Shown: one piece after another, positions 10,556 to 37,824 of the stretch | Layout of the letters: each line of letters starts with the position of its first letter | How positions within the stretch are numbered: position 1 is the stretch's first letter | From: a virus | Taxonomy: Duplodnaviria; Heunggongvirae; Uroviricota; Caudoviricetes | IMG/VR virus record: IMGVR_UViG_2925891887_000008 | Length of the DNA: 38,557 nt | Reading direction: 5' to 3' (one strand) | Made by a program: the position numbers and the translations under genes | The notes under the pieces: generated by a model | Seen by the model: only the letters and a program-made list of their open reading frames with translations | Database searches by the model: none | What the model was told of the DNA's origin: nothing

Positions 10556-10969
10556 TTATCTGCTTGCAGGGAAAACAGGCCAAATAATATCAGGTGCGGT
10601 GCTGGTATCTGTTGCCGTCACAGCCTCGATATAATCCAGCACAACGTTAAGTCGGGTAGTTTCCTCTTGCGTCAGTTTGCGCCCGGCCTGCAGCTTTAAC
10701 TGAATCACGCTGATATTGACCATTGCTGCGTCTATCAACGACTGTTTTTTCTGTTCAGCGTCAGCTACCAGTTCATCATGAGAACGTTCCGGAGTGGGTG
10801 GTGCAGTAAATACCCCGTCTGAATACGCCCAGCCGATTCCGGGCTGCTCACTGATATCAGAAATATTAATGAGCTGCAGATTATCCGGCACAGTGAATTC
10901 ATCCTCGCCATCCCAGACAATGACATTCACAACCATCCCATTTTCAATAACTGCATATGACGCATTCAT
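10556..10969 (-). CDS. Tail fibre assembly protein
   Basis: ATG MNASYAVIENG... overlaps the stop of the tail fibre gene by 1 nt (TAATG); the track ORF has an upstream TTG extension. Confidence 0.7.
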   Translation of the reverse strand: MNASYAVIENGMVVNVIVWDGEDEFTVPDNLQLINISDISEQPGIGWAYSDGVFTAPPTPERSHDELVADAEQKKQSLIDAAMVNISVIQLKLQAGRKLTQEETTRLNVVLDYIEAVTATDTSTAPDIIWPVFPASR

Positions 10970-12888
10970 TATGCAAACTCCTCGATAATACAAACCCCAT
11001 CAGCACCTTTCCCGCCCGTCATACTGGTTCCGCTATAACCTGCATCGTATGCACCACCTCCGCCTGAACCAAATGCCCTGCCTCTAACGCCACCGCCAGC
11101 GCCTGCGCGTCCACCGCCACCCCAGTACGATGTTCCGCCTTCACCGCTGACGCCGATATTTCCGGACTGACCGTCGCCTCCATCTCCACCAGTGATGCGG
11201 ATATCGCCAGTACTCGGCACACCTCCGTTACCGCCGTTTGTGTTTGTAACACCCACTTTCCCGCCACCTTCGCCACCAGGAGCAATTAACGATGCGAATA
11301 CGCTATTCCCGCCCCTGGTGCCGTTCGTTGCACTAACACCACCGGCCCCACCTGCGCCGATAGTGACTGGATAACTATTCTGTGTCGGGGTCATTATTGA
11401 AATTATTGTTCCACCGGCCCCACCGCCAGCACCGAAAAACGTTTCATTATTGGATGTAGCCTTGCAGCCGCCCCCTCCGCCACCGCCGCCCGTTATTGTG
11501 ACCCTGATCCGTTTTGTTTCTGGTGATGGGGTATACGTACCTGATGACGCGAAAGCCCGGGTACTCAGCCGGCGTCCCACGTATCCGCTTGTATCTCCCA
11601 AACCAAGATAACGAATAACCTCCTGTTTGCTTGTTTTAGCCAGAATATCCCGTCCAACATTAGTCAGGGTTGTCAGGCTGGCTGTATCATTCCCCGTAAA
11701 ATACGGTAGTTTGTCTGCCGCAGTGGCAAGGCCTGCCAGTGCGGTCAGTGTGGCGTCGGCAGGTTGTTTTCCATTGGCAAGGTCATATACAGCCTTCACA
11801 GCTTTTGGTGTGGCAGCCTGCGTTTCTGACGTGCTGTTAGTGGCGCTGCTGAGTTGCACGGTACCTTTTACCGTCAGTGAAGCTGCAGGCACATCCGTTA
11901 TCTGGCTCCACGGGTGCGTGTGACTGACAGGTGCCTTACCTGCTGCAAGGTCATATGCCGCCTTCACTGCCTTTGGTGTGGCAGCCTGCGTTTCTGACGT
12001 GCTGTTAGTGGCGCTGCTGAGTTGCACGGTGCCTTTTACCGTCAGTGAAGCTGCAGGCACATCCGTTATCTGATTCCACGGGTGTGTGTGACTGACAGGT
12101 GCCTTACCTGCTGCAAGGTCATATACAGCCTTCACTGCCTTTGGAGTGGCAGCCTGCGTTTCTGATGTGCTGTTAGTGGCGCTGCTGAGTTGCACGGTGC
12201 CTTTTACCGTCAGCGAGGCTGCAGGTACACCTGTTATCTGATTCCACGGGTGTGTGTGACTGGCGGATGCTTTACCTGCTGCAAGATCATATGCAGCCTT
12301 CACAGCCTTCGGTGTTGCGGCCAGTATTTCGGATTCACTGTTGGTCGCACTGCTTAACTGAGTAAAACCTTTTGCGGTCAGCGAGGCGTCCGGGTGACGT
12401 CGTGACTGTTCGTGCTCTGATATTTTGTCATCCACATACTTGCGGGTTGCCAGCACTACAGCAGGGTCGATTTTCAGGATGATATTGTCCGTACTGCTGG
12501 TAATCAGCACCATGCGCACGGTCTGGGTACGCCCACTGCCTTCAGCCAGTTGCGGCTTATAGCTTTCCGGGCAGTTACCCACGGCAATCAATGCCCCGGA
12601 CTCATCAAACAAGCCCACTTCACGTATCCACCAACCGCCCTCGTTTTCAGGGATCACCTGTTCAGCAATAATCTGGCTGCTGTTCTGCGGGTCGATATAA
12701 AGCATATTCAGCGCAGCCCGGCGTTTCTCATTTACCAGTGCCGTCTGCTTTGCGTCCGGCGTTGGCAATACTCCGCCGCCATCGCCCACCGCCATATGGG
12801 TAATTTTTAGCGGCACACCGAGCGCGGCGGCGCTGGCAAGTTTCGCCGCGCCAATATCCGTCAGCAGGGTATAAAATTTTGTGCTCAT
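10969..12888 (-). CDS. H: Tail fibre protein (P2 H-like N-terminus, internal 56-aa repeats, Gly-rich C-terminal domain)
   Basis: 639-aa ORF; N-terminus MSTKFYTLLTDIGAAKLA... is typical of P2-family H; the C-terminal roughly 170 aa are very Gly-rich. Confidence 0.85.
   Translation of the reverse strand: MSTKFYTLLTDIGAAKLASAAALGVPLKITHMAVGDGGGVLPTPDAKQTALVNEKRRAALNMLYIDPQNSSQIIAEQVIPENEGGWWIREVGLFDESGALIAVGNCPESYKPQLAEGSGRTQTVRMVLITSSTDNIILKIDPAVVLATRKYVDDKISEHEQSRRHPDASLTAKGFTQLSSATNSESEILAATPKAVKAAYDLAAGKASASHTHPWNQITGVPAASLTVKGTVQLSSATNSTSETQAATPKAVKAVYDLAAGKAPVSHTHPWNQITDVPAASLTVKGTVQLSSATNSTSETQAATPKAVKAAYDLAAGKAPVSHTHPWSQITDVPAASLTVKGTVQLSSATNSTSETQAATPKAVKAVYDLANGKQPADATLTALAGLATAADKLPYFTGNDTASLTTLTNVGRDILAKTSKQEVIRYLGLGDTSGYVGRRLSTRAFASSGTYTPSPETKRIRVTITGGGGGGGGCKATSNNETFFGAGGGAGGTIISIMTPTQNSYPVTIGAGGAGGVSATNGTRGGNSVFASLIAPGGEGGGKVGVTNTNGGNGGVPSTGDIRITGGDGGDGQSGNIGVSGEGGTSYWGGGGRAGAGGGVRGRAFGSGGGGAYDAGYSGTSMTGGKGADGVCIIEEFA
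11700..12390. repeat. Four tandem 168-bp (56-aa) in-frame repeats inside the tail fibre gene
   Basis: Repeat unit GGTCATAT(A/G)C(A/C)GCCTTCAC...GGCAGCCTGCGTTTCTGA recurs with period 168 bp at 11781, 11949, 12117 and, more degenerate, 12285. Confidence 0.8.
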
Positions 12889-13490
12889 GGATTCACTCTC
12901 ATTGTGTCAATAACATGGACCGCCCCGCCTTCATGCGCGGTGCCACCGGAAATAATCGTTTCGTTGATATACGGATAGATCGTGATTTCTTCGCCAAGAT
13001 AGCTGGCGGCTCCCACCCAATGCGGGCCGCTGGTCTGCAGATTGATGGACATGCCGATCATGTGGCGGCTACATGGTTTGGCATCGCTTATCAGTCGCTC
13101 AAGTTCCAGATAGGTATCTTCAGTGATACCCTGGTCCTGCACGCCGATATCCAGGCGAAACGTGCCCGGTGCCTCTCCGGTCTGCCACCACTCAATAATG
13201 CGGATCAGAAAGCCGAACGGCTCCACCACCCGCCGCACGGCACTGGTGGTCCCTTTATGCTGATGAATATAAAAAGCATCCTTCACCACCTGGCGCTTGA
13301 CGCTTTCTGTCCAGCCCTCGTCCCAGCGATCTACAGAGAACGCCCAGGCGAGATAAGGCAGGAAACTGACCGGACAGGTTGCCGGATTCCACAAGTCACG
13401 AAGCGGCACCTGCAGATCAGAAATCCCGCTGCAGGTTTGCGCCAGTCGGCGCTCCAGTGGTGTTGAACCCGGTGGCAGCAGACTATTCAT
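12885..13490 (-). CDS. I: Baseplate assembly protein I
   Basis: 201-aa ORF between J and H. Confidence 0.8.
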   Translation of the reverse strand: MNSLLPPGSTPLERRLAQTCSGISDLQVPLRDLWNPATCPVSFLPYLAWAFSVDRWDEGWTESVKRQVVKDAFYIHQHKGTTSAVRRVVEPFGFLIRIIEWWQTGEAPGTFRLDIGVQDQGITEDTYLELERLISDAKPCSRHMIGMSINLQTSGPHWVGAASYLGEEITIYPYINETIISGGTAHEGGAVHVIDTMRVNP

Positions 13491-15312: not shown

Positions 15313-16083
15313 AGGGAAAGGTTGCCATCAATAGCAAGCAGTAGACAGCCTTTGTAATTGTATTAGACATAGAACAAATGCCTTTCAATGGTCTGCGTTA
15401 GAGCATTAATACGTTGCAAAAGGTCGAATGACGTTGCGCAAGTTAAGAAGTTCAATGCTCTTAAAAAAGCACTTGAAAGCAACGCCTTTAATTATTAAAA
15501 GCCAATTAATTTAGGCGGTTACTATGTTATCTTTGACACAAAAGATGTTTATTGACAATATATAAGTTCAATCTAACAAGGAGAAAAATTATGCCAAATG
15601 AAAATCTTGATATTGACTCAAGGACTACCGAGCAATTATACGAATGGTATTTGCAAGGAAATTTGATAGTCAATAGACGTTATCAAAGGAAACTTGTATG
15701 GTCTCTAGAAGAAAAGACTTCTTTAATATCTTCTATGCTGCAACAATATCCTATTCCGTTATTATTATTTGTTACCATCAATGAACAAAGAGAAATATTG
15801 GATGGAATGCAAAGATTAGAAGCAATTATGAGCTTCATCGAACAGAGATTTTCATTAGATGGACAATATTTTGATTTGGACTCTATAGCTTTAACAAAAC
15901 AACTTAAAGATAATGGAACTTTAATTCAGAAAGAACCAATCCTTTCCCGTGATTCTTCAGCAATTATTGCACGTTATCGATTTGCAATATCAGAATATAG
16001 CTCCACAAATGAAAATATTGACGAAGTATTCAGACGAATAAACTCAAACGGGAAGATTTTATCCAAACAAGAATTACGTAGTG

Positions 16084-16092
16084 CAGGAACAG
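16084..16092. repeat. IS1 target-site duplication, left copy (CAGGAACAG)
   Basis: Identical 9-mer immediately flanks both IS1 ends. Confidence 0.85.
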
Positions 16093-16147
16093 GGTGATGC
16101 TGCCAACTTACTGATTTAGTGTATGATGGTGTTTTTGAGGTGCTCCA

Positions 16148-16423
16148 GTGGCTTCTGTTTCTATCAGCTGTCCCTCCTGTTCAGCTACTGACGGGGTGGT
16201 GCGTAACGGCAAAAGCACCGCCGGACATCAGCGCTATCTCTGCTCTCACTGCCGTAAAACATGGCAACTGCAGTTCACTTACACCGCTTCTCAACCCGGT
16301 ACGCACCAGAAAATCATTGATATGGCCATGAATGGCGTTGGATGCCGGGCAACCGCCCGCATTATGGGCGTTGGCCTCAACACGATTTTCCGCCATTTAA
16401 AAAACTCAGGCCGCAGTCGGTAA
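16148..16423 (+). CDS. insA: IS1 InsA
   Basis: 91-aa [26 protein letters not shown]... typical of InsA. Confidence 0.85.
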
Positions 16424-16845
16424 CCTCGCGCATACAGCCGGGCAGTGACGTCATCGTCTGCGCGGAAATGGACGAACAGTGGGGATACGTCGGGGCTAAA
16501 TCGCGCCAGCGCTGGCTGTTTTACGCGTATGACAGGCTCCGGAAGACGGTTGTTGCGCACGTATTCGGTGAACGCACTATGGCGACACTGGGGCGTCTTA
16601 TGAGCCTGCTGTCACCCTTTGACGTGGTGATATGGATGACGGATGGCTGGCCGCTGTATGAATCCCGCCTGAAGGGAAAGCTGCACGTAATCAGCAAGCG
16701 ATATACGCAGCGAATTGAGCGGCATAACCTGAATCTGAGGCAGCACCTGGCACGGCTGGGACGGAAGTCGCTGTCGTTCTCAAAATCGGTGGAGCTGCAT
16801 GACAAAGTCATCGGGCATTATCTGAACATAAAACACTATCAATAA
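16342..16845 (+). CDS. insB: IS1 InsB frame (expressed as InsAB' by -1 frameshift)
   Basis: -1-frame ORF overlapping the insA 3' end; slippery A6C at 16399-16405. Confidence 0.8.
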
Positions 16846-16860
16846 GTTGGAGTCATTACC

Positions 16861-16869
16861 CAGGAACAG
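16861..16869. repeat. IS1 target-site duplication, right copy (CAGGAACAG)
   Basis: Identical to 16084..16092. Confidence 0.85.
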
Positions 16870-18187
16870 TTAGTAACTTCTCTGAACTGGTCAGATCGAT
16901 ATCAACATCGATCAGAGGTGATACTAGCCATTCTGACATTATGAATCTCCAGCAAATGCACAAAATTTCAATCAGTAACGATAGATTGGAGTACGGGGTA
17001 AATATCGATAACCACTTTTATATAAAACATCATATTTTAACAAGACGAAGTATTCGTGATTCTGATGACGAGGAATTGATAGCCAATATCCTTGCATATA
17101 TCAGTCTAGAAGAAAAACCCACATCTGGGTCAACTTCTCTCGACACATTCTATGGTCAAGGAAACTCCTCTCATGCTCATGGTGTCAGACAGCAATTAGA
17201 GTCTTTCATTCAAACCAATAACGCTGCCACTATTAAGCAGAATTTCATAGCTGTATATGAATTAATTACAAGCCTATATGACGGAAAAAATGATACTTTT
17301 AGAAGCCATATTTTAGGGGAGGATAATTCATCTCAAGAATGCCCTCGTTATTATCAAGCTGTGTTTTTGTCTATTTATGAACTTCTTTTCAACCAAAATA
17401 TGCAATTAATTGATAAAGAAGGTTTATTCTCGCAATTAAAAAACACTGGCAATACCATAATTATGGTTACCGATGGTGGCCGCTGGGCTGCAAGCACTCG
17501 TGAAAAAAGTGTTAATGATCTTGTTGCATTAATAAGTCGTTACTTCCAACCTGCTCCTCAAAAGTATGTGAATCATGCTTGGGTAACTGAAATTCGCAAT
17601 CTATTAACAAATTCTAGAACTGAACAACCAAGTTATGATTTCAAACAAGGGTTCTTTAATTTATCAGGTAAAAATGAATTTGATGATGAATGTTTAAAAG
17701 GAATATTACAAACTTGCGTAGCAATAAATAATATTGGAAAAAGCGCAAAAGGCTATATTTTAGTTGGTATTGCCGAAAATAAATTAACCGCAGATAGAAT
17801 TCAACATTTATATGGAGTAAATTCAATTGAGTTCAATGGGTTCTATATAAACGGAATTGATCATGAAGCAATGTTAGTCTCTGGTAGCATTGATGATTAC
17901 TTTATGTTAATAAAACAAAAAATACAAGGATACAATTTCACTGAAACTCTAAAACAGCAGATACTTAAGAATATTGAGTTTTGCTCTTACAATGGCTTAC
18001 ACATACTCAAGATAACTATTCAGAGCACAGGTCAAATTTGCGACTTTGAGAATATGTTTTATATCAGACAAGGCTCATCGACTGATCCAGTTACGGATAC
18101 ACAAAAAATCTCAGCTCTATTTAACTCTTACATGAACAGCTAATCAATCGCCATCTCCACTGGAGCTGGCTTATGGATAAAAACAAA

Positions 18188-26710: not shown

Positions 26711-27337
26711 ATGGATATCGAAAAGCTAAAAGAATTTTACGAAAAACTTTACTTTCAGGAAACGGAAAATAAAGACAAGATTTACAACAGAATTCAAATG
26801 ATATTTGGATTAATAGTAATCGACGCAACTATCGTAACATATCTGCTTAAAAACACATCCTTTGAAAATCATGCATTCTTTGCCTGCATTGTTATAGGAC
26901 TTTCATTATTATCAGTGTTTTTTATTTATAAAGCCTGCATGCTCCTAAAAAAAGCATTTTGGGGTAATGAATTCAAATACATTCCCAAACCTAAGGAAAT
27001 AGACGAATACTACAATGGCCTCATTAAATATGAAGCAGACTATAAAAAATATTGTGATAATAATGGGCTTACCTATAATGGTGAGCACTCATCAAGTAAA
27101 AAGTTCAATGAATACTTAGTAAAACAACTAGTAGAGTGTACTAGTTGGAATACTAAGAAAAATGAAATGAGAACAAGTCAAATATATCGAGCCACTAAAT
27201 TCTTTTTTTTCTCACTAATTCCATTAGTGATAGCGGTTGGCTTTTTTTTAGCGATGGATCTCGATTCAGCCTCGCCAAGGAAGACTAATGAGCCACATTT
27301 CATTATTATACCTGTAGATAATATCAGGAGATTATGA
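26711..27337 (+). CDS. AT-rich cargo membrane protein (208 aa, about three TM helices), unknown function
   Basis: RBS GGAG, ATG at 26711; hydrophobic segments at about residues 30-46, 55-73 and 164-182. Confidence 0.5.
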   Translation: MDIEKLKEFYEKLYFQETENKDKIYNRIQMIFGLIVIDATIVTYLLKNTSFENHAFFACIVIGLSLLSVFFIYKACMLLKKAFWGNEFKYIPKPKEIDEYYNGLIKYEADYKKYCDNNGLTYNGEHSSSKKFNEYLVKQLVECTSWNTKKNEMRTSQIYRATKFFFFSLIPLVIAVGFFLAMDLDSASPRKTNEPHFIIIPVDNIRRL

Positions 27338-28139: not shown

Positions 28140-28565
28140 ATGAAAAGCTTTTACGTATTAATTTTAATTCTGGTTGCAAGCTTTGTTAGCGTCCCAGTTC
28201 AGGCGGTAACAGCTAAAAACTATGAGAAAGGAACTAAAGCTCAACAGAAATCAATATCTTACCTTTCATGTGCATTCTATGGCAGTAGCACACAATTAGA
28301 TCCTAGCTACACGGAGCAAGTACCTACAGCCGATATCAAGATATTACAGAAAGCAGCTTACCACGCTTACAACGATGCGCTCTCATACTTTGGCTATGAG
28401 GAACCAGATCACGAACAACGCATAATTGATTATGCTGAATTTGTGGCGTCGCAAGAAGCTGTGTTATGGGATAAGCCGGGAATGAATGGAAAGCAGGTAA
28501 CACTAATTGCTCGTTCTCTCTACAATGAGAGTAACTGTAACTTGTTACTGGACTCAATTAAGTAG
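28140..28565 (+). CDS. AT-rich cargo secreted protein (141 aa, Sec signal peptide), unknown function
   Basis: RBS GAGGT, ATG at 28140; N-terminal hydrophobic signal with ...VQA/V cleavage-like site. Confidence 0.5.
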   Translation: MKSFYVLILILVASFVSVPVQAVTAKNYEKGTKAQQKSISYLSCAFYGSSTQLDPSYTEQVPTADIKILQKAAYHAYNDALSYFGYEEPDHEQRIIDYAEFVASQEAVLWDKPGMNGKQVTLIARSLYNESNCNLLLDSIK

Positions 28566-35433: not shown

Positions 35434-36748
35434 GGGTCTTCCCTTGTTGTGGTGGCTGAAGGCATGATAATGGTGTATTTAATCGCCAGAGGTCACCGCC
35501 ATGGACGAAAAGTCCCTCTACGCTCATATTCTCAACCTGTCCGATCCGTGGCAGGTAAAGTCCCTTTCTCTCGATGAAAATGCCGGTTCTGTTACTGTCA
35601 CTATTGAGATCGCTGAAAACACCCGGCTAGCCTGTCCGACCTGCGGTAAATCCTGTTCTGTTCACGATCACCGTCATCGTAAATGGCGCCATCTTGATAC
35701 CTGCCAGTTCACCACTATTGTTGAAGCCGATGTTCCACGAATTATGTGTCCGGAGCATGGCTGCCTGACGTTGCCTGTTCCGTGGGCTGGCCCCGGAAGC
35801 CGGTATACGTTGCTATTCGAATCGTTCGTTCTCTCATGGCTGAAAATCAGCACCGTTGATGCTGTCAGGAAGCAACTTAAGCTCAGTTGGAATGCGGTTG
35901 ACGGCATTATGACCCGGGCAGTTAAGCGAGGTCTTGCCCGGATAAAAAAGCCATTATCCGCCCGTCATATGAATGTGGATGAGGTCGCCTTTAAAAAAGG
36001 ACATCGTTACATAACGGTGATCTCCGATCGCGATGGTCGGGCGCTGGCCTTAACGGATGATCGCGGCACAGAGAGTCTTGCCGGCTATCTTCGCACGCTC
36101 ACTGATGGGCAGTTGCTGGCTATCAAAACGCTCTCAATGGACATGAACGCGGGCTATATAAGAGCAGCGCGTATCCACTTACCCAGTGCGGTTGAGAAAA
36201 TCGCCTTTGACCGCTTCCATGTGGCGAAGCAACTGGGCGAGGTAGTTGATAAAACCCGTCAGAATGAACATCCGCACCTCCCTGTTGAAAGCCGACACCA
36301 GGCAAAAGGAACCCGCTTCCTGTGGCAGTACAGCGATAAGTGGATGACCGAATCCCGGCAGGAAAAGCTGATGTGGCTGCGTGCACAGATGAAGCTGACG
36401 AGCCAGTGCTGGGCGCTGAAAGAGCTGGCAAAGGATATCTGGAACAGGCCATGGAGCGAGGAAAGACGGAGTGACTGGCAGAGATGGTTGGCGCTGGCGG
36501 CTAACAGTGACGTTCCCATGATGAAAAATGCCGCGAAAACGATAGGAAAAAGGCTGTACGGGATCCTGAATGCGATGCGACACAGTGTCTCAAACGGAAA
36601 TGCGGAGGCACTTAACAGCAAGATCAGGCTGCTGAGGATAAAAGCCAGGGGATACCGAAACCGGGAGCGCTTTAAACTGGGGGTGATGTTCCACTACGGA
36701 AAGCTGAATATGGCGTTCTGAGCCTTCCCACCATGATCGGGGAAGACC
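35434..36748 (+). mobile_element. ISL3-family insertion sequence (1315 bp)
   Basis: Imperfect terminal inverted repeats GGGTCTTCCC..TGGTGG at both ends, single transposase ORF, 8-bp duplication. Confidence 0.8.
35501..36721 (+). CDS. ISL3-family transposase
   Basis: 406-aa ORF with N-terminal zinc-ribbon-like CPTCG...CPEHGC and a DDE-like core. Confidence 0.8.
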   Translation: MDEKSLYAHILNLSDPWQVKSLSLDENAGSVTVTIEIAENTRLACPTCGKSCSVHDHRHRKWRHLDTCQFTTIVEADVPRIMCPEHGCLTLPVPWAGPGSRYTLLFESFVLSWLKISTVDAVRKQLKLSWNAVDGIMTRAVKRGLARIKKPLSARHMNVDEVAFKKGHRYITVISDRDGRALALTDDRGTESLAGYLRTLTDGQLLAIKTLSMDMNAGYIRAARIHLPSAVEKIAFDRFHVAKQLGEVVDKTRQNEHPHLPVESRHQAKGTRFLWQYSDKWMTESRQEKLMWLRAQMKLTSQCWALKELAKDIWNRPWSEERRSDWQRWLALAANSDVPMMKNAAKTIGKRLYGILNAMRHSVSNGNAEALNSKIRLLRIKARGYRNRERFKLGVMFHYGKLNMAF

Positions 36749-36756
36749 CTTATACA
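36749..36756. repeat. ISL3-family element target-site duplication, right copy (TTATACAT)
   Basis: Identical to 35426..35433. Confidence 0.75.
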
Positions 36757-36792
36757 TACAGTAAAAATGCTCTCTATTGGAGGGCATTTTTT

Positions 36793-37824
36793 ATGGCAGT
36801 ACGAAAACTCACCACAGGAAAATGGCTTTGCGAATGTTACCCCGCCGGACGTAGTGGGCGTCGTGTGCGTAAACAATTCGCCACCAAAGGCGAAGCACTG
36901 GCTTTTGAGCGTCACACGATGGAAGAAACCGAAGCAAAGCCCTGGCTGGGCGAATCAGTAGATCGTCGAACCCTGAAAGACGTGGTTGAGCTATGGTTCA
37001 AACTACATGGTAAATCTCTGACTGCTGGGCAGCATGTCTATGACAAATTGCTGCTGATGGTTGACGCTCTGGGCAATCCCCTTGCAACCGATCTCACATC
37101 TAAAATGTTTGCCCATTATCGAGATAAACGACTGACAGGTGAGATCTACTTCAGCGAGAAATGGAAGAAAGGGGCCAGCCCGGTCACCATTAACCTGGAG
37201 CAAAGCTATCTAAGTAGTGTTTTTAGCGAACTATCCCGCCTGGGCGAATGGTCGTATCCAAACCCACTGGAGAACATGCGAAAATTCACCATCGCAGAAA
37301 AAGAGATGGCATGGCTTACCCATGAGCAGATTGTTGAACTGCTGGATGATTGCAAACGTCAGGACCCAATTCTGGCACTGGTAGTCAAGATATGCTTAAG
37401 CACAGGCGCACGCTGGCGAGAAGCAATAAACCTAACCCGATCACAGGTGACCAAATACCGAATTACCTTTGTAAGAACGAAGGGGAAGAAAAACAGAAGC
37501 ATCCCTATCAGTAAAGAGCTTTATGAAGAGATCATGGCGCTTGATGGGTTCAATTTCTTCACAGACTGCTATTTTCAATTTTTATCCGTGATGGAAAAAA
37601 CGTCTATCGTGCTCCCTCGCGGTCAACTTACACACGTTCTGCGTCATACGTTTGCGGCGCATTTCATGATGTCGGGTGGAAACATCCTTGCTTTGCAAAA
37701 AATCCTCGGACATCACGACATAAAAATGACTATGCGTTATGCTCATCTATCACCTGATCACTTAGAGACAGCTCTTCGTTTCAATCCACTAGCAACTTTG
37801 GATGTTACTAAATCAGATTCTTAA
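36793..37824 (+). CDS. int: Tyrosine integrase (P2/186 family)
   Basis: MAVRKLTTGKW...LSTGARWREA...HVLRHTFA...YAHL has the tyrosine-recombinase catalytic residues; RBS GGAGG. The track ORF has a spurious upstream extension. Confidence 0.9.
   Translation: MAVRKLTTGKWLCECYPAGRSGRRVRKQFATKGEALAFERHTMEETEAKPWLGESVDRRTLKDVVELWFKLHGKSLTAGQHVYDKLLLMVDALGNPLATDLTSKMFAHYRDKRLTGEIYFSEKWKKGASPVTINLEQSYLSSVFSELSRLGEWSYPNPLENMRKFTIAEKEMAWLTHEQIVELLDDCKRQDPILALVVKICLSTGARWREAINLTRSQVTKYRITFVRTKGKKNRSIPISKELYEEIMALDGFNFFTDCYFQFLSVMEKTSIVLPRGQLTHVLRHTFAAHFMMSGGNILALQKILGHHDIKMTMRYAHLSPDHLETALRFNPLATLDVTKSDS

What the first reader, a model, noticed from the sequence alone, without database searches (positions are those of the whole stretch)
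10969..12888. Mosaic tail fibre: conserved P2-type N-terminus, four tandem 56-aa repeats and a glycine-rich C-terminal domain
The tail fibre gene contains four 168-bp repeats, three nearly identical at the DNA level, which could expand or contract by recombination, followed by an unusually Gly-rich C-terminal region of about 170 aa (G8 run and many GG/GGG). This differs from what I expect of a P2 H receptor-binding tip and suggests an exchanged host-range module. The downstream assembly protein is coupled by a TAATG overlap.
Basis: seen in the sequence. Interest (0 to 1): 0.45.

Follow-up and report, generated by a model that had tools for sequence, protein, structure and literature searches.

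The report
P2-type tail fibre with swappable tip
This is the tail fibre gene of a P2-like prophage of E. coli, built from a conserved baseplate anchor, a repeat shaft of variable length and an exchangeable glycine-rich receptor-binding tip with its own chaperone; it is real but ordinary and already annotated.

Summary
Window 10969..12888 (-) is a 639-aa ORF with three parts:
- a P2-type N-terminal domain (Pfam Phage_tail_fib, aa 1-150);
- four 56-aa Phage_fiber_2 repeats (aa 169-392);
- a 212-aa C-terminal glycine-rich domain (Pfam Gly_rich_2, 32% Gly, G8 run).
A TAATG overlap joins it to a 137-aa Caudo_TAP assembly protein.

One correction: only repeat units 2 and 3 are nearly identical (95% DNA). 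Unit 4 is 88-89% identical to them over its core. Unit 1 is 69-78% identical to the others.

- Close E. coli relatives carry 2, 3 or 4 repeats. Some also have an extra domain inserted at the same junction.
- The tip plus chaperone moves as a 1.03-kb cassette. It is 93.7% identical in a Mu-like prophage and also occurs in lambdoid and P1-like fibres and in jumbo phage Goslar.
- A 3-repeat ortholog belongs to the active E. coli HS prophage DuoHS, which needs O9 O-antigen to infect.

None of this is new. The protein is identical to RefSeq WP_000104780.1, annotated as a tail fibre protein, every module is a curated family, and tail-fibre mosaicism in P2 is textbook knowledge. Interest is low.

The parts
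10969..12888 (-). Tail fibre gene (P2 gpH homolog), 639 aa; identical to RefSeq WP_000104780.1 'tail fiber protein'
   Evidence: ORF; 100% DNA identity to annotated genes in 8 complete E. coli genomes; phrog_6202 E 6.7e-261
12439..12888 (-). N-terminal baseplate-attachment domain, aa 1-150 (Pfam Phage_tail_fib PF12571)
   Evidence: 214.5 bits, profile 1-150/150; 96-97% DNA identity to many P2-like phages over window ~12425-12888 only; aligns to P2 H
11713..12384 (-). Four tandem 56-aa/168-bp Phage_fiber_2 repeats (aa 169-392): unit 1 12217-12384, unit 2 12049-12216, unit 3 11881-12048, unit 4 11713-11880 (last third of unit 4 diverges)
   Evidence: TRF period 168, score 917; Pfam PF03406 4 stretches E 7.5e-72; pairwise identities; copy number 2-4 in relatives
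11608..11763 (-). Conserved linker aa 376-427 (QPADATLTALAGLATAADKLPYFTGNDTASLTTLTNVGRDILAK...YLGL), shared with P2 H and with other fibre classes; ends at the module junction
   Evidence: 83% DNA identity to P2 H over aa 378-419; protein alignment; same motif in the 352- to 361-aa fibres (e.g. P0001, P0022, P0040); 132-aa knob insertion in L004 lies exactly at 11601-11607
10972..11607 (-). C-terminal 212-aa TNF-like + glycine-rich tip domain (aa 428-639; Pfam Gly_rich_2 PF21722), inferred receptor-binding domain
10556..10969 (-). Tail fibre assembly protein (chaperone), 137 aa, Caudo_TAP; start overlaps fibre stop (TAATG); travels with the tip as one cassette
   Evidence: Pfam PF02413 74.4 bits; 90% aa identity to the Tfa next to a Mu-like prophage fibre, 94% to DuoHS Tfa; no similarity to P2 G; DNA cassette 11607..10578 at 93.7%
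12885..13490 (-). gpI-type baseplate protein immediately upstream (context: P2 late operon J-I-H-G order)
   Evidence: Pfam Tail_P2_I 185 bits; RefSeq annotation of the identical locus

Best explanation
The gene encodes the tail fibre of a P2-like (Peduoviridae) prophage integrated next to ybjL in E. coli. It is a chain of four modules.

1. **Anchor, aa 1-150.** The conserved P2 gpH-type domain that docks the fibre to the gpI/gpJ baseplate wedge.
2. **Shaft, aa 169-392.** Four 56-aa Phage_fiber_2 repeats. Because the units are 88-95% identical in DNA, unequal homologous recombination adds or removes whole units, so the shaft length varies between lineages.
3. **Linker, aa 376-427.** It ends in ...YLGL and is shared by many otherwise unrelated fibres. 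It acts as the recombination joint.
4. **Tip, aa 428-639.** It folds as a TNF-like beta-sandwich from which glycine-rich extended strands form a hydrogen-bonded lattice, as in cyanophage Pam3 gp24. The non-glycine segments between the glycine motifs are the variable, receptor-contacting part.

The downstream Caudo_TAP protein is the tip-specific chaperone. Its translation is probably coupled to the fibre's through the TAATG overlap, and it is inherited together with the tip as a 1.03-kb host-range cassette.

The most likely ligand is a lipopolysaccharide or O-antigen structure.

**Shown here:** the module boundaries, the copy-number variation, the cassette exchange, and the family and predicted-fold membership.

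**Inferred:** trimer formation, receptor binding by the tip, the nature of the ligand, and any effect of repeat number on infection.
For: **Gene context and identity**
- The gene sits in the P2 late-operon order: gpV, W, J, I, fibre, Tfa, sheath, tube.
- Pfam: Phage_tail_fib 214.5 bits, Phage_fiber_2 x4, Gly_rich_2 54.3 bits; Caudo_TAP 74.4 bits for the next gene.
- P2 H aligns to aa 1-~435, then stops. P2 G is unrelated to this Tfa.
- DNA identity to sequenced P2-like phages (96-97%) is confined to the N-terminal ~154 codons.

**Repeat variation**
- Repeat counts of 2, 3 and 4 occur in otherwise 94-98% identical genes. Strain HS shows 3 repeats in four independent assemblies.

**Cassette exchange**
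- Tip plus Tfa is 93.7% identical from window 11607 to 10578 in a Mu-like prophage whose fibre N-terminus is unrelated.
- The tip also sits behind lambda Stf-like repeats, in a 1060-aa fibre on a ~90-kb plasmid, in 0-repeat P2-type fibres, and (67% DNA identity) in jumbo phage Goslar.
- The tip is present in 261 of 5426 complete E. coli genomes.

**Fold of the tip**
- The AF2 model has pLDDT 95.4 and pTM 0.90.
- The aligned Pam3 gp24 segment (residues 85-275) also passes the Gly_rich_2 cut-off (25.7 bits vs 24.3).
- PMC9608196 describes that domain as the distal, receptor-recognising part of the fibre, embraced by a TFA-like chaperone.

**Variable positions**
- Among 106 E. coli tip variants, variation clusters in the non-glycine segments (tip positions 49-53, 68-77, 92-106, 113-118 and 131-142), while the glycines are invariant.

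**Functional anchors**
- The 3-repeat ortholog (tip 83.5% aa identical, Tfa 94%) is the fibre of DuoHS in E. coli HS. DuoHS forms virions and needs O9 O-antigen to infect (bioRxiv 10.64898/2026.09.09.750276; 10.64898/2026.05.19.726188).
- A Pam3-gp24-like fibre of Klebsiella phage SCNJ1-Y recognises LPS, and its host-adaptation mutations lie in the glycine-rich domain (PMC12671077).
Against: - No experiment ties this tip to any receptor. The DuoHS study identifies O9 O-antigen as required but does not map that requirement to the fibre tip.
- The structure is a monomer prediction. Trimerisation and chaperone binding were not modelled.
- Direct sequence similarity to Pam3 gp24 is weak (phmmer E 0.1-0.2 with strong composition bias). 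A profile of the close E. coli variants did not hit it at all. Homology therefore rests on shared Pfam membership and the predicted fold.
- Whether this prophage is active is unknown. It carries an IS1 insertion inside a GmrSD-like cargo gene and an ISL3 transposase gene next to its integrase gene.
Confidence: 0.8

Rival explanations
1. The glycine-rich domain is not the receptor binder. It would be a structural cap or a folding module (an intramolecular chaperone that is removed). Specificity would then reside elsewhere: in the assembly protein retained on the fibre, as reported for Mu and Ur-lambda in the introduction of PMC9608196, or in another baseplate protein.
For: - Some Tfa proteins stay on mature fibres (PMC9608196 introduction).
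- Some relatives carry an additional knob or another ~190-aa domain just upstream of the tip, which could itself bind receptors.
Against: - The domain has no Pfam match other than Gly_rich_2, so there is no sign of a protease or self-cleaving chaperone domain.
- The domain's closest structural relative, Pam3 gp24, keeps it in the virion as the distal end, while the chaperone gp25 is absent from virions.
- Variation among alleles concentrates in the tip's non-glycine segments, as expected for a binding surface.
- The tip is the most distal domain in every architecture seen.
Confidence: 0.1
2. The repeat-number differences are neutral by-products of recombination between similar 168-bp units (or assembly artefacts). 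They have no consequence for host range. Only the tip exchange matters.
For: - Nothing links copy number to phenotype.
- Fibres with 0, 2, 3 and 4 repeats all occur with similar tips.
- Many database entries for this family are partial proteins that begin inside the repeat array. This would be expected if short-read assemblies break at the repeats.
Against: - Artefact is unlikely. The same count recurs in independent complete assemblies: strain HS in four records, and 35 records with 4 repeats. All changes are exact multiples of 168 bp with the reading frame kept.
- Neutrality itself cannot be excluded with these tools.
Confidence: 0.4
3. The prophage is defective, and the fibre gene is a relic that no longer makes a functional fibre.
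For: - An IS1 transposase ORF splits a GmrSD-like gene inside the prophage.
- An ISL3 transposase gene lies beside the integrase gene.
Against: - All late genes around the fibre are intact ORFs with the expected overlaps.
- The fibre is 100% identical in 8 complete genomes.
- The IS1 hits a cargo gene, not a structural gene.
- The orthologous prophage DuoHS is active.
Confidence: 0.15

Closest known systems
Bacteriophage P2 gpH / gpG (tail fibre and assembly protein)
   Same: - Same position in the late operon (J-I-H-G, then sheath).
- Homologous N-terminal domain, Phage_fiber_2 repeats and linker. The alignment covers aa 1-~435 at 54% identity including gaps.
- Mosaic tail fibre genes shared between unrelated phages were first described for P2 H/G (Haggard-Ljungquist et al. 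1992, from my own knowledge).
   Different: - P2 H has two shorter repeats (48-aa spacing), not four 56-aa units.
- Its C-terminal ~285 aa are unrelated to the glycine-rich tip.
- P2 G shows no similarity to this Tfa.
- There is no Z/fun-type cargo gene between Tfa and sheath here.
DuoHS, the P2-like prophage of E. coli HS (fibre MJ392_RS14350, WP_000104758.1)
   Same: - Same architecture and the same tip family. The N-terminus is almost identical, the tip is 83.5% aa identical, and the Tfa is 94% identical.
- DuoHS is an active phage that requires O9 O-antigen.
   Different: - It has three repeats instead of four.
- 35 of 212 tip residues differ. About half cluster in the variable segments (tip positions 68-77, 97-107 and 135-142) and the rest are scattered. 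The ligand may therefore differ.
Cyanophage Pam3 tail fibre gp24 with chaperone gp25 (PDB 7YPX, 7YFW; PMC9608196)
   Same: - Also followed by a TFA-like chaperone gene.
   Different: - Pam3 gp24 is a minimal 280-aa fibre with an alpha-helical N-terminal anchor.
- It has no P2-type anchor and no repeat shaft.
- Sequence similarity is only marginal by direct comparison (E 0.1-0.2).
Klebsiella phage SCNJ1-Y TFP_Y (PMC12671077)
   Same: A Pam3-gp24-like fibre with a TNF-like plus glycine-rich domain. It recognises LPS, and its host-adaptation mutations lie in the glycine-rich domain.
   Different: It has a different N-terminal anchor. I did not compare the sequences directly.
Salmonella phage S16 / T2-type gp38 adhesin and ALK/LTK glycine-rich domains
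   Different: - gp38 is a separate adhesin protein that caps gp37; it is not a fused C-terminal domain.
- ALK and LTK are eukaryotic receptor ectodomains.

Membership tests
P2 gpH-type tail fibre (Peduoviridae) | N-terminal Phage_tail_fib (tail-collar fibre) domain | tested here: met
   PF12571 214.5 bits over the full profile 1-150/150
P2 gpH-type tail fibre (Peduoviridae) | Position after gpJ/gpI and before the Tfa and tail sheath genes in a P2-type late operon | tested here: met
   ORFs and Pfam; RefSeq annotation of the identical locus
P2 gpH-type tail fibre (Peduoviridae) | P2 H-like C-terminal receptor-binding region and a gpG-like assembly protein | tested here: not met
   BLASTP similarity to P2 H ends at aa ~435. 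P2 G versus this Tfa gives E 1.5. This is a member by anchor and shaft, not by tip.
Phage_fiber_2 repeat proteins (PF03406) | Tandem copies of the ~42-aa ...QLSSATNS.SE..AATPKAVK..YD.. motif | tested here: met
   4 stretches, E 7.5e-72; units listed; the same motif aligns to Mu fibre S in the PDB
Gly_rich_2 / Pam3 gp24-like TNF-like + glycine-rich fibre tips | Pfam PF21722 match above the curated cut-off, covering the whole domain | tested here: met
   54.3 bits vs cut-off 24.3, profile 4-224/226. The aligned Pam3 gp24 segment (residues 85-275) scores 25.7 bits.
Gly_rich_2 / Pam3 gp24-like TNF-like + glycine-rich fibre tips | Fold: beta-sandwich plus lattice of glycine-rich extended strands | tested here: met
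   [not shown]
Gly_rich_2 / Pam3 gp24-like TNF-like + glycine-rich fibre tips | Forms the distal end of a trimeric fibre and binds the host receptor | not testable with these tools
   The domain is C-terminal in nearly all of the 150 best representatives. Binding is inferred from PMC9608196, PMC12671077 and the DuoHS work.
Caudo_TAP tail fibre assembly proteins (lambda gpK/Tfa type) | PF02413 match, gene immediately downstream of the fibre, N-terminal part specific to the tip | tested here: met
   74.4 bits; 1-nt overlap with the fibre gene; co-transferred with the tip. Only the C-terminal ~56 codons match the Tfa genes of other phages.
T2/S16 gp38-type polyglycine adhesins | Separate adhesin protein that attaches to the gp37 tip | tested here: not met
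   The glycine-rich domain is fused within the fibre ORF. No gp38 structure appears among the matches listed by either search.
Fibres and spikes with a self-cleaving C-terminal intramolecular chaperone (Peptidase_S74) | C-terminal Peptidase_S74 domain | tested here: not met
   No such Pfam hit at E <= 0.01

The most novel reading that the evidence does not exclude
The 1.03-kb cassette (glycine-rich tip plus Tfa) may be a portable specificity module for O-antigen or LPS that circulates among at least five unrelated coliphage lineages: P2-like, Mu-like, lambdoid, a fibre on ~90-kb (probably P1-like) plasmids, and the jumbo phage Goslar. In this reading, its few non-glycine variable segments encode serotype specificity, and the number of 56-aa shaft repeats is selected to match the depth of the host's capsule or O-antigen layer. 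If so, tip alleles could be read as a serotype code and re-engineered by grafting short loops.
Probability: 0.25. Interest if true: 0.4.

Novelty: already known. Interest (0 to 1): 0.15.

Why it matters
It matters little as a discovery. The protein is already in RefSeq as a tail fibre protein, all modules belong to curated families, and modular exchange of tail fibre tips is a classic finding.

Its practical value is as a clean worked example.
- The junction motif (...YLGL | GD.SGYVGR...) and the tip-plus-chaperone cassette boundaries are defined to the base.
- An active, experimentally tractable ortholog exists: DuoHS in E. coli HS, with O9 O-antigen as receptor.

This glycine-rich tip family is therefore a reasonable target for host-range engineering of P2-type phages or tailocins. 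It could also be used to ask whether tip alleles predict O-serotype.

Tried and rejected
- **AlphaFold2 with a shallow alignment failed.** Using 107 close E. coli variants (78-96% identical) gave pLDDT 35. I discarded that model and replaced it with a run on 130 diverse representatives.
- **Profile search of the PDB found only noise.** The profile built from the close-variant alignment gave a single chance-level hit to a spike glycoprotein, E 0.51. Single-sequence phmmer gave a marginal but end-to-end collinear hit to Pam3 gp24. That hit was a lead, and Pfam membership and fold search later confirmed it.
- **tblastn of the tip against 50,697 phage genomes was uninformative.** It found only Goslar, and only the first 100 residues of the 204-aa query, probably because BLAST's low-complexity filter masks the glycine-rich part. 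A DNA search replaced it.
- **Literature search for 'Gly_rich_2' or 'PF21722' found no papers**.
- **Rejected readings:**
  - A low-complexity or disordered tail: rejected by the confident fold.
  - A self-cleaving chaperone domain: no Pfam hit.
  - An invertible alternative-tip system as in Mu or P1: only one tip and one Tfa lie here, directly followed by the sheath gene.
  - Assembly artefact as the cause of the repeat differences: the counts are reproduced in independent complete genomes.
Full report
**1. What is in the sequence**

Window 10969..12888 on the minus strand is a single 639-aa ORF with an ATG start. It lies in a P2-type late operon. Upstream are the homologs of gpV, gpW, gpJ and gpI; the gpI homolog (12885..13490, Pfam Tail_P2_I) overlaps the fibre start by 4 nt. 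Downstream are a 137-aa Caudo_TAP protein (10556..10969), then the tail sheath and tube genes.

The fibre and Tfa genes are 100% identical to those of a prophage next to ybjL in E. coli AR_0019 and seven other complete genomes. There the gene product is WP_000104780.1, annotated 'tail fiber protein'.

**2. The repeats**

Tandem Repeats Finder reports a 168-bp period, 3.2 copies, 92% matches and score 917. At protein level four in-register 56-aa units start at aa 169, 225, 281 and 337, and each contains a Pfam Phage_fiber_2 motif (E 7.5e-72 for the four).

| Unit compared | DNA identity |
|---|---|
| 2 vs 3 | 95% over 168 nt |
| 4 vs 2 and 3 | 88-89% over its 117-nt core; its last third diverges into the linker |
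| 1 vs the others | 69-78% |

**3. The glycine-rich end is a folded domain**

The last 170 aa are 35% glycine, with a G8 run at aa 467-474. Pfam places aa 450-636 in Gly_rich_2 (PF21722) at 54.3 bits against a cut-off of 24.3.

A full-library HMMER search with the 212-aa region (aa 428-639) found 5726 representative clusters at E <= 0.001 and 648 at E <= 1e-10. The match is nearly always at the very C-terminus, in proteins of 215 to 1405 aa.

AlphaFold2 failed with an alignment of close variants (pLDDT 35). With 130 diverse sequences it gave pLDDT 95.4 and pTM 0.90. The structural matches were:

| Match | Score |
|---|---|

The aligned Pam3 gp24 segment (residues 85-275) also passes the Gly_rich_2 cut-off.

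The Pam3 structure paper describes this unit as a TNF-like beta-sandwich whose strands extend into a lattice of glycine-rich motifs. It forms the distal end of the fibre and is proposed to recognise the receptor. During assembly it is embraced by a TFA-like chaperone that is absent from virions (PMC9608196).

**4. Comparison with relatives: repeat number**

Among the 60 best complete-genome matches in E. coli the gene spans are:

| Span (bp) | Architecture | Records |
|---|---|---|
| 1920 | 4 repeats | 35 (one is a 1922-bp frameshifted copy) |
| 1752 | 3 repeats | 7 (four are assemblies of strain HS) |
| 1584 | 2 repeats | 2 |
| 2316 | 4 repeats plus a 132-aa insert | 4 |
| 1980 | 2 repeats plus the insert | 8 |
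| other | other architectures | 4 |

Translations confirm clean, in-frame loss of whole units. Some units are hybrids, as expected from unequal homologous recombination. P2-type fibres with no repeats but the same tip also exist (414 aa; P0101, P0115). So the repeat array does expand and contract.

**5. Comparison with relatives: the tip is a cassette**

- P2 H aligns to aa 1-~435. It shares the anchor, two shorter repeats and the linker ...DATLTALAGLATAAD.PYFTGND.ASL.TLT.VGRDILAK...YLGL, and then similarity stops. P2 G is unrelated to this Tfa.
- Sequenced P2-like phages match at 96-97% only over the first ~154 codons.
- A Mu-like prophage has a 308-aa fibre, mis-named 'carbohydrate kinase' in many records, with an unrelated N-terminus. 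Its DNA is 93.7% identical from window 11607 (aa 428, LGLGD...) to 10578, that is, tip plus almost the whole Tfa gene. The Tfa proteins are 90% identical.
- The 132-aa insert is inserted at exactly the same junction, window 11601-11607. RefSeq names a plasmid fibre that contains it a 'pyocin knob domain-containing protein', so it is possibly a knob domain.
- The same tip follows at least six different N-terminal modules:
  - fibres of 352-361 aa and of 374 aa;
  - fibres with lambda Stf-like repeats;
  - a 1060-aa fibre on a ~90-kb plasmid. The size and an adjacent recombinase pseudogene suggest a P1-like phage-plasmid, but I did not verify this;
  - a P2-type fibre with a different ~190-aa penultimate domain.
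- At megablast level the tip is in 261 of 5426 complete E. coli genomes, and 77 of the 373 places are on plasmids.
- Among 50,697 deposited phage genomes, only the jumbo phage Goslar has the tip-plus-Tfa cassette (67% DNA identity over 99% of it). All others match only the last ~56 codons of the Tfa gene.

**6. Where the tip varies**

Across 106 distinct E. coli tip variants the glycines are invariant or nearly so. Variation is concentrated in the short non-glycine segments at tip positions 49-53, 68-77, 92-106, 113-118 and 131-142, which correspond to H aa 476-480, 495-504, 519-533, 540-545 and 558-569.

This is the conserved-scaffold, variable-segment pattern described for Pam3 gp24.

**7. 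A functional anchor**

The 3-repeat ortholog in E. coli HS is MJ392_RS14350, beside the sheath gene MJ392_RS14340. It is the fibre of the P2-like prophage DuoHS. Its tip is 83.5% identical to the window's, and about half of its 35 differences fall in the variable segments.

DuoHS forms myovirus particles (10.64898/2026.05.19.726188) and requires the O9 O-antigen for binding, killing and lysogeny (10.64898/2026.09.09.750276). That work does not map the requirement to the fibre tip.

A Pam3-gp24-like fibre of a Klebsiella phage recognises LPS, with adaptive mutations in its glycine-rich domain (PMC12671077).

Together these make an LPS or O-antigen ligand the most likely one for this tip family. 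That is an inference.

**8. Verdict**

The finding is ordinary, however. The exact protein is annotated in RefSeq. A PHROG family (phrog_6202, profile length 636) matches it strongly (E 6.7e-261). All modules are curated Pfam families, and a homologous tip has a solved structure. Tail-fibre mosaicism was established for P2 itself decades ago (my own knowledge: Haggard-Ljungquist et al. 1992). I score it as already known, with low interest.

**9. What did not work**

See 'tried and rejected': the shallow-alignment model, the profile-versus-PDB search, the tblastn search that missed the glycine-rich part, and the empty literature search for the Pfam name.

Noticed in passing
window 15552-18143 (+): At the cargo locus between the baseplate gene gpV and the tail completion genes (the place of orf30 in P2, from my own knowledge) lies a GmrSD-type restriction endonuclease gene that appears to be split. 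The pieces are a GmrSD_N fragment (15552-16097), an IS1 transposase ORF (16342-16845), and a 400-aa C-terminal piece (16941-18143). In E. coli AR_0019 the same locus holds one intact 591-aa GmrSD gene.
   Followed up: partly
window 35501-37824 (+): An ISL3-family transposase gene (35501-36721) lies directly next to the phage integrase gene (36733-37824) at the far end of the prophage. I did not examine whether this affects excision.
   Followed up: no
L004 2552-2942; L010, L012, L013 (relatives, not the window): Some relatives carry a 132-aa cysteine-containing domain (GCPASPTGWLKTGNNGES...) inserted exactly at the linker/tip junction. The same domain precedes the tip in a 1060-aa fibre on a ~90-kb plasmid that RefSeq names 'pyocin knob domain-containing protein'. 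Pfam finds no family for it.
   Followed up: partly
L006 8001-8927 and many database entries (P0035, P0047, P0053 etc.): The 308-aa Mu-like prophage tail fibre that carries this tip is widely mis-annotated as 'carbohydrate kinase' in NCBI records.
   Followed up: partly
database hits P0003-P0041: A large share of public entries for this fibre are 'partial' proteins that begin inside the repeat array. This suggests that short-read assemblies often break at the near-identical 168-bp units, so repeat counts should be taken only from complete or long-read genomes.
   Followed up: no
window 26711-27337 and 28140-28565 (+): Two ORFs (208 and 141 aa) lie in the variable region after the portal gene. 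From my own knowledge, P2-like phages often carry cargo and defence genes at this locus. Neither ORF has a Pfam match, and RefSeq calls the equivalents hypothetical.
   Followed up: partly
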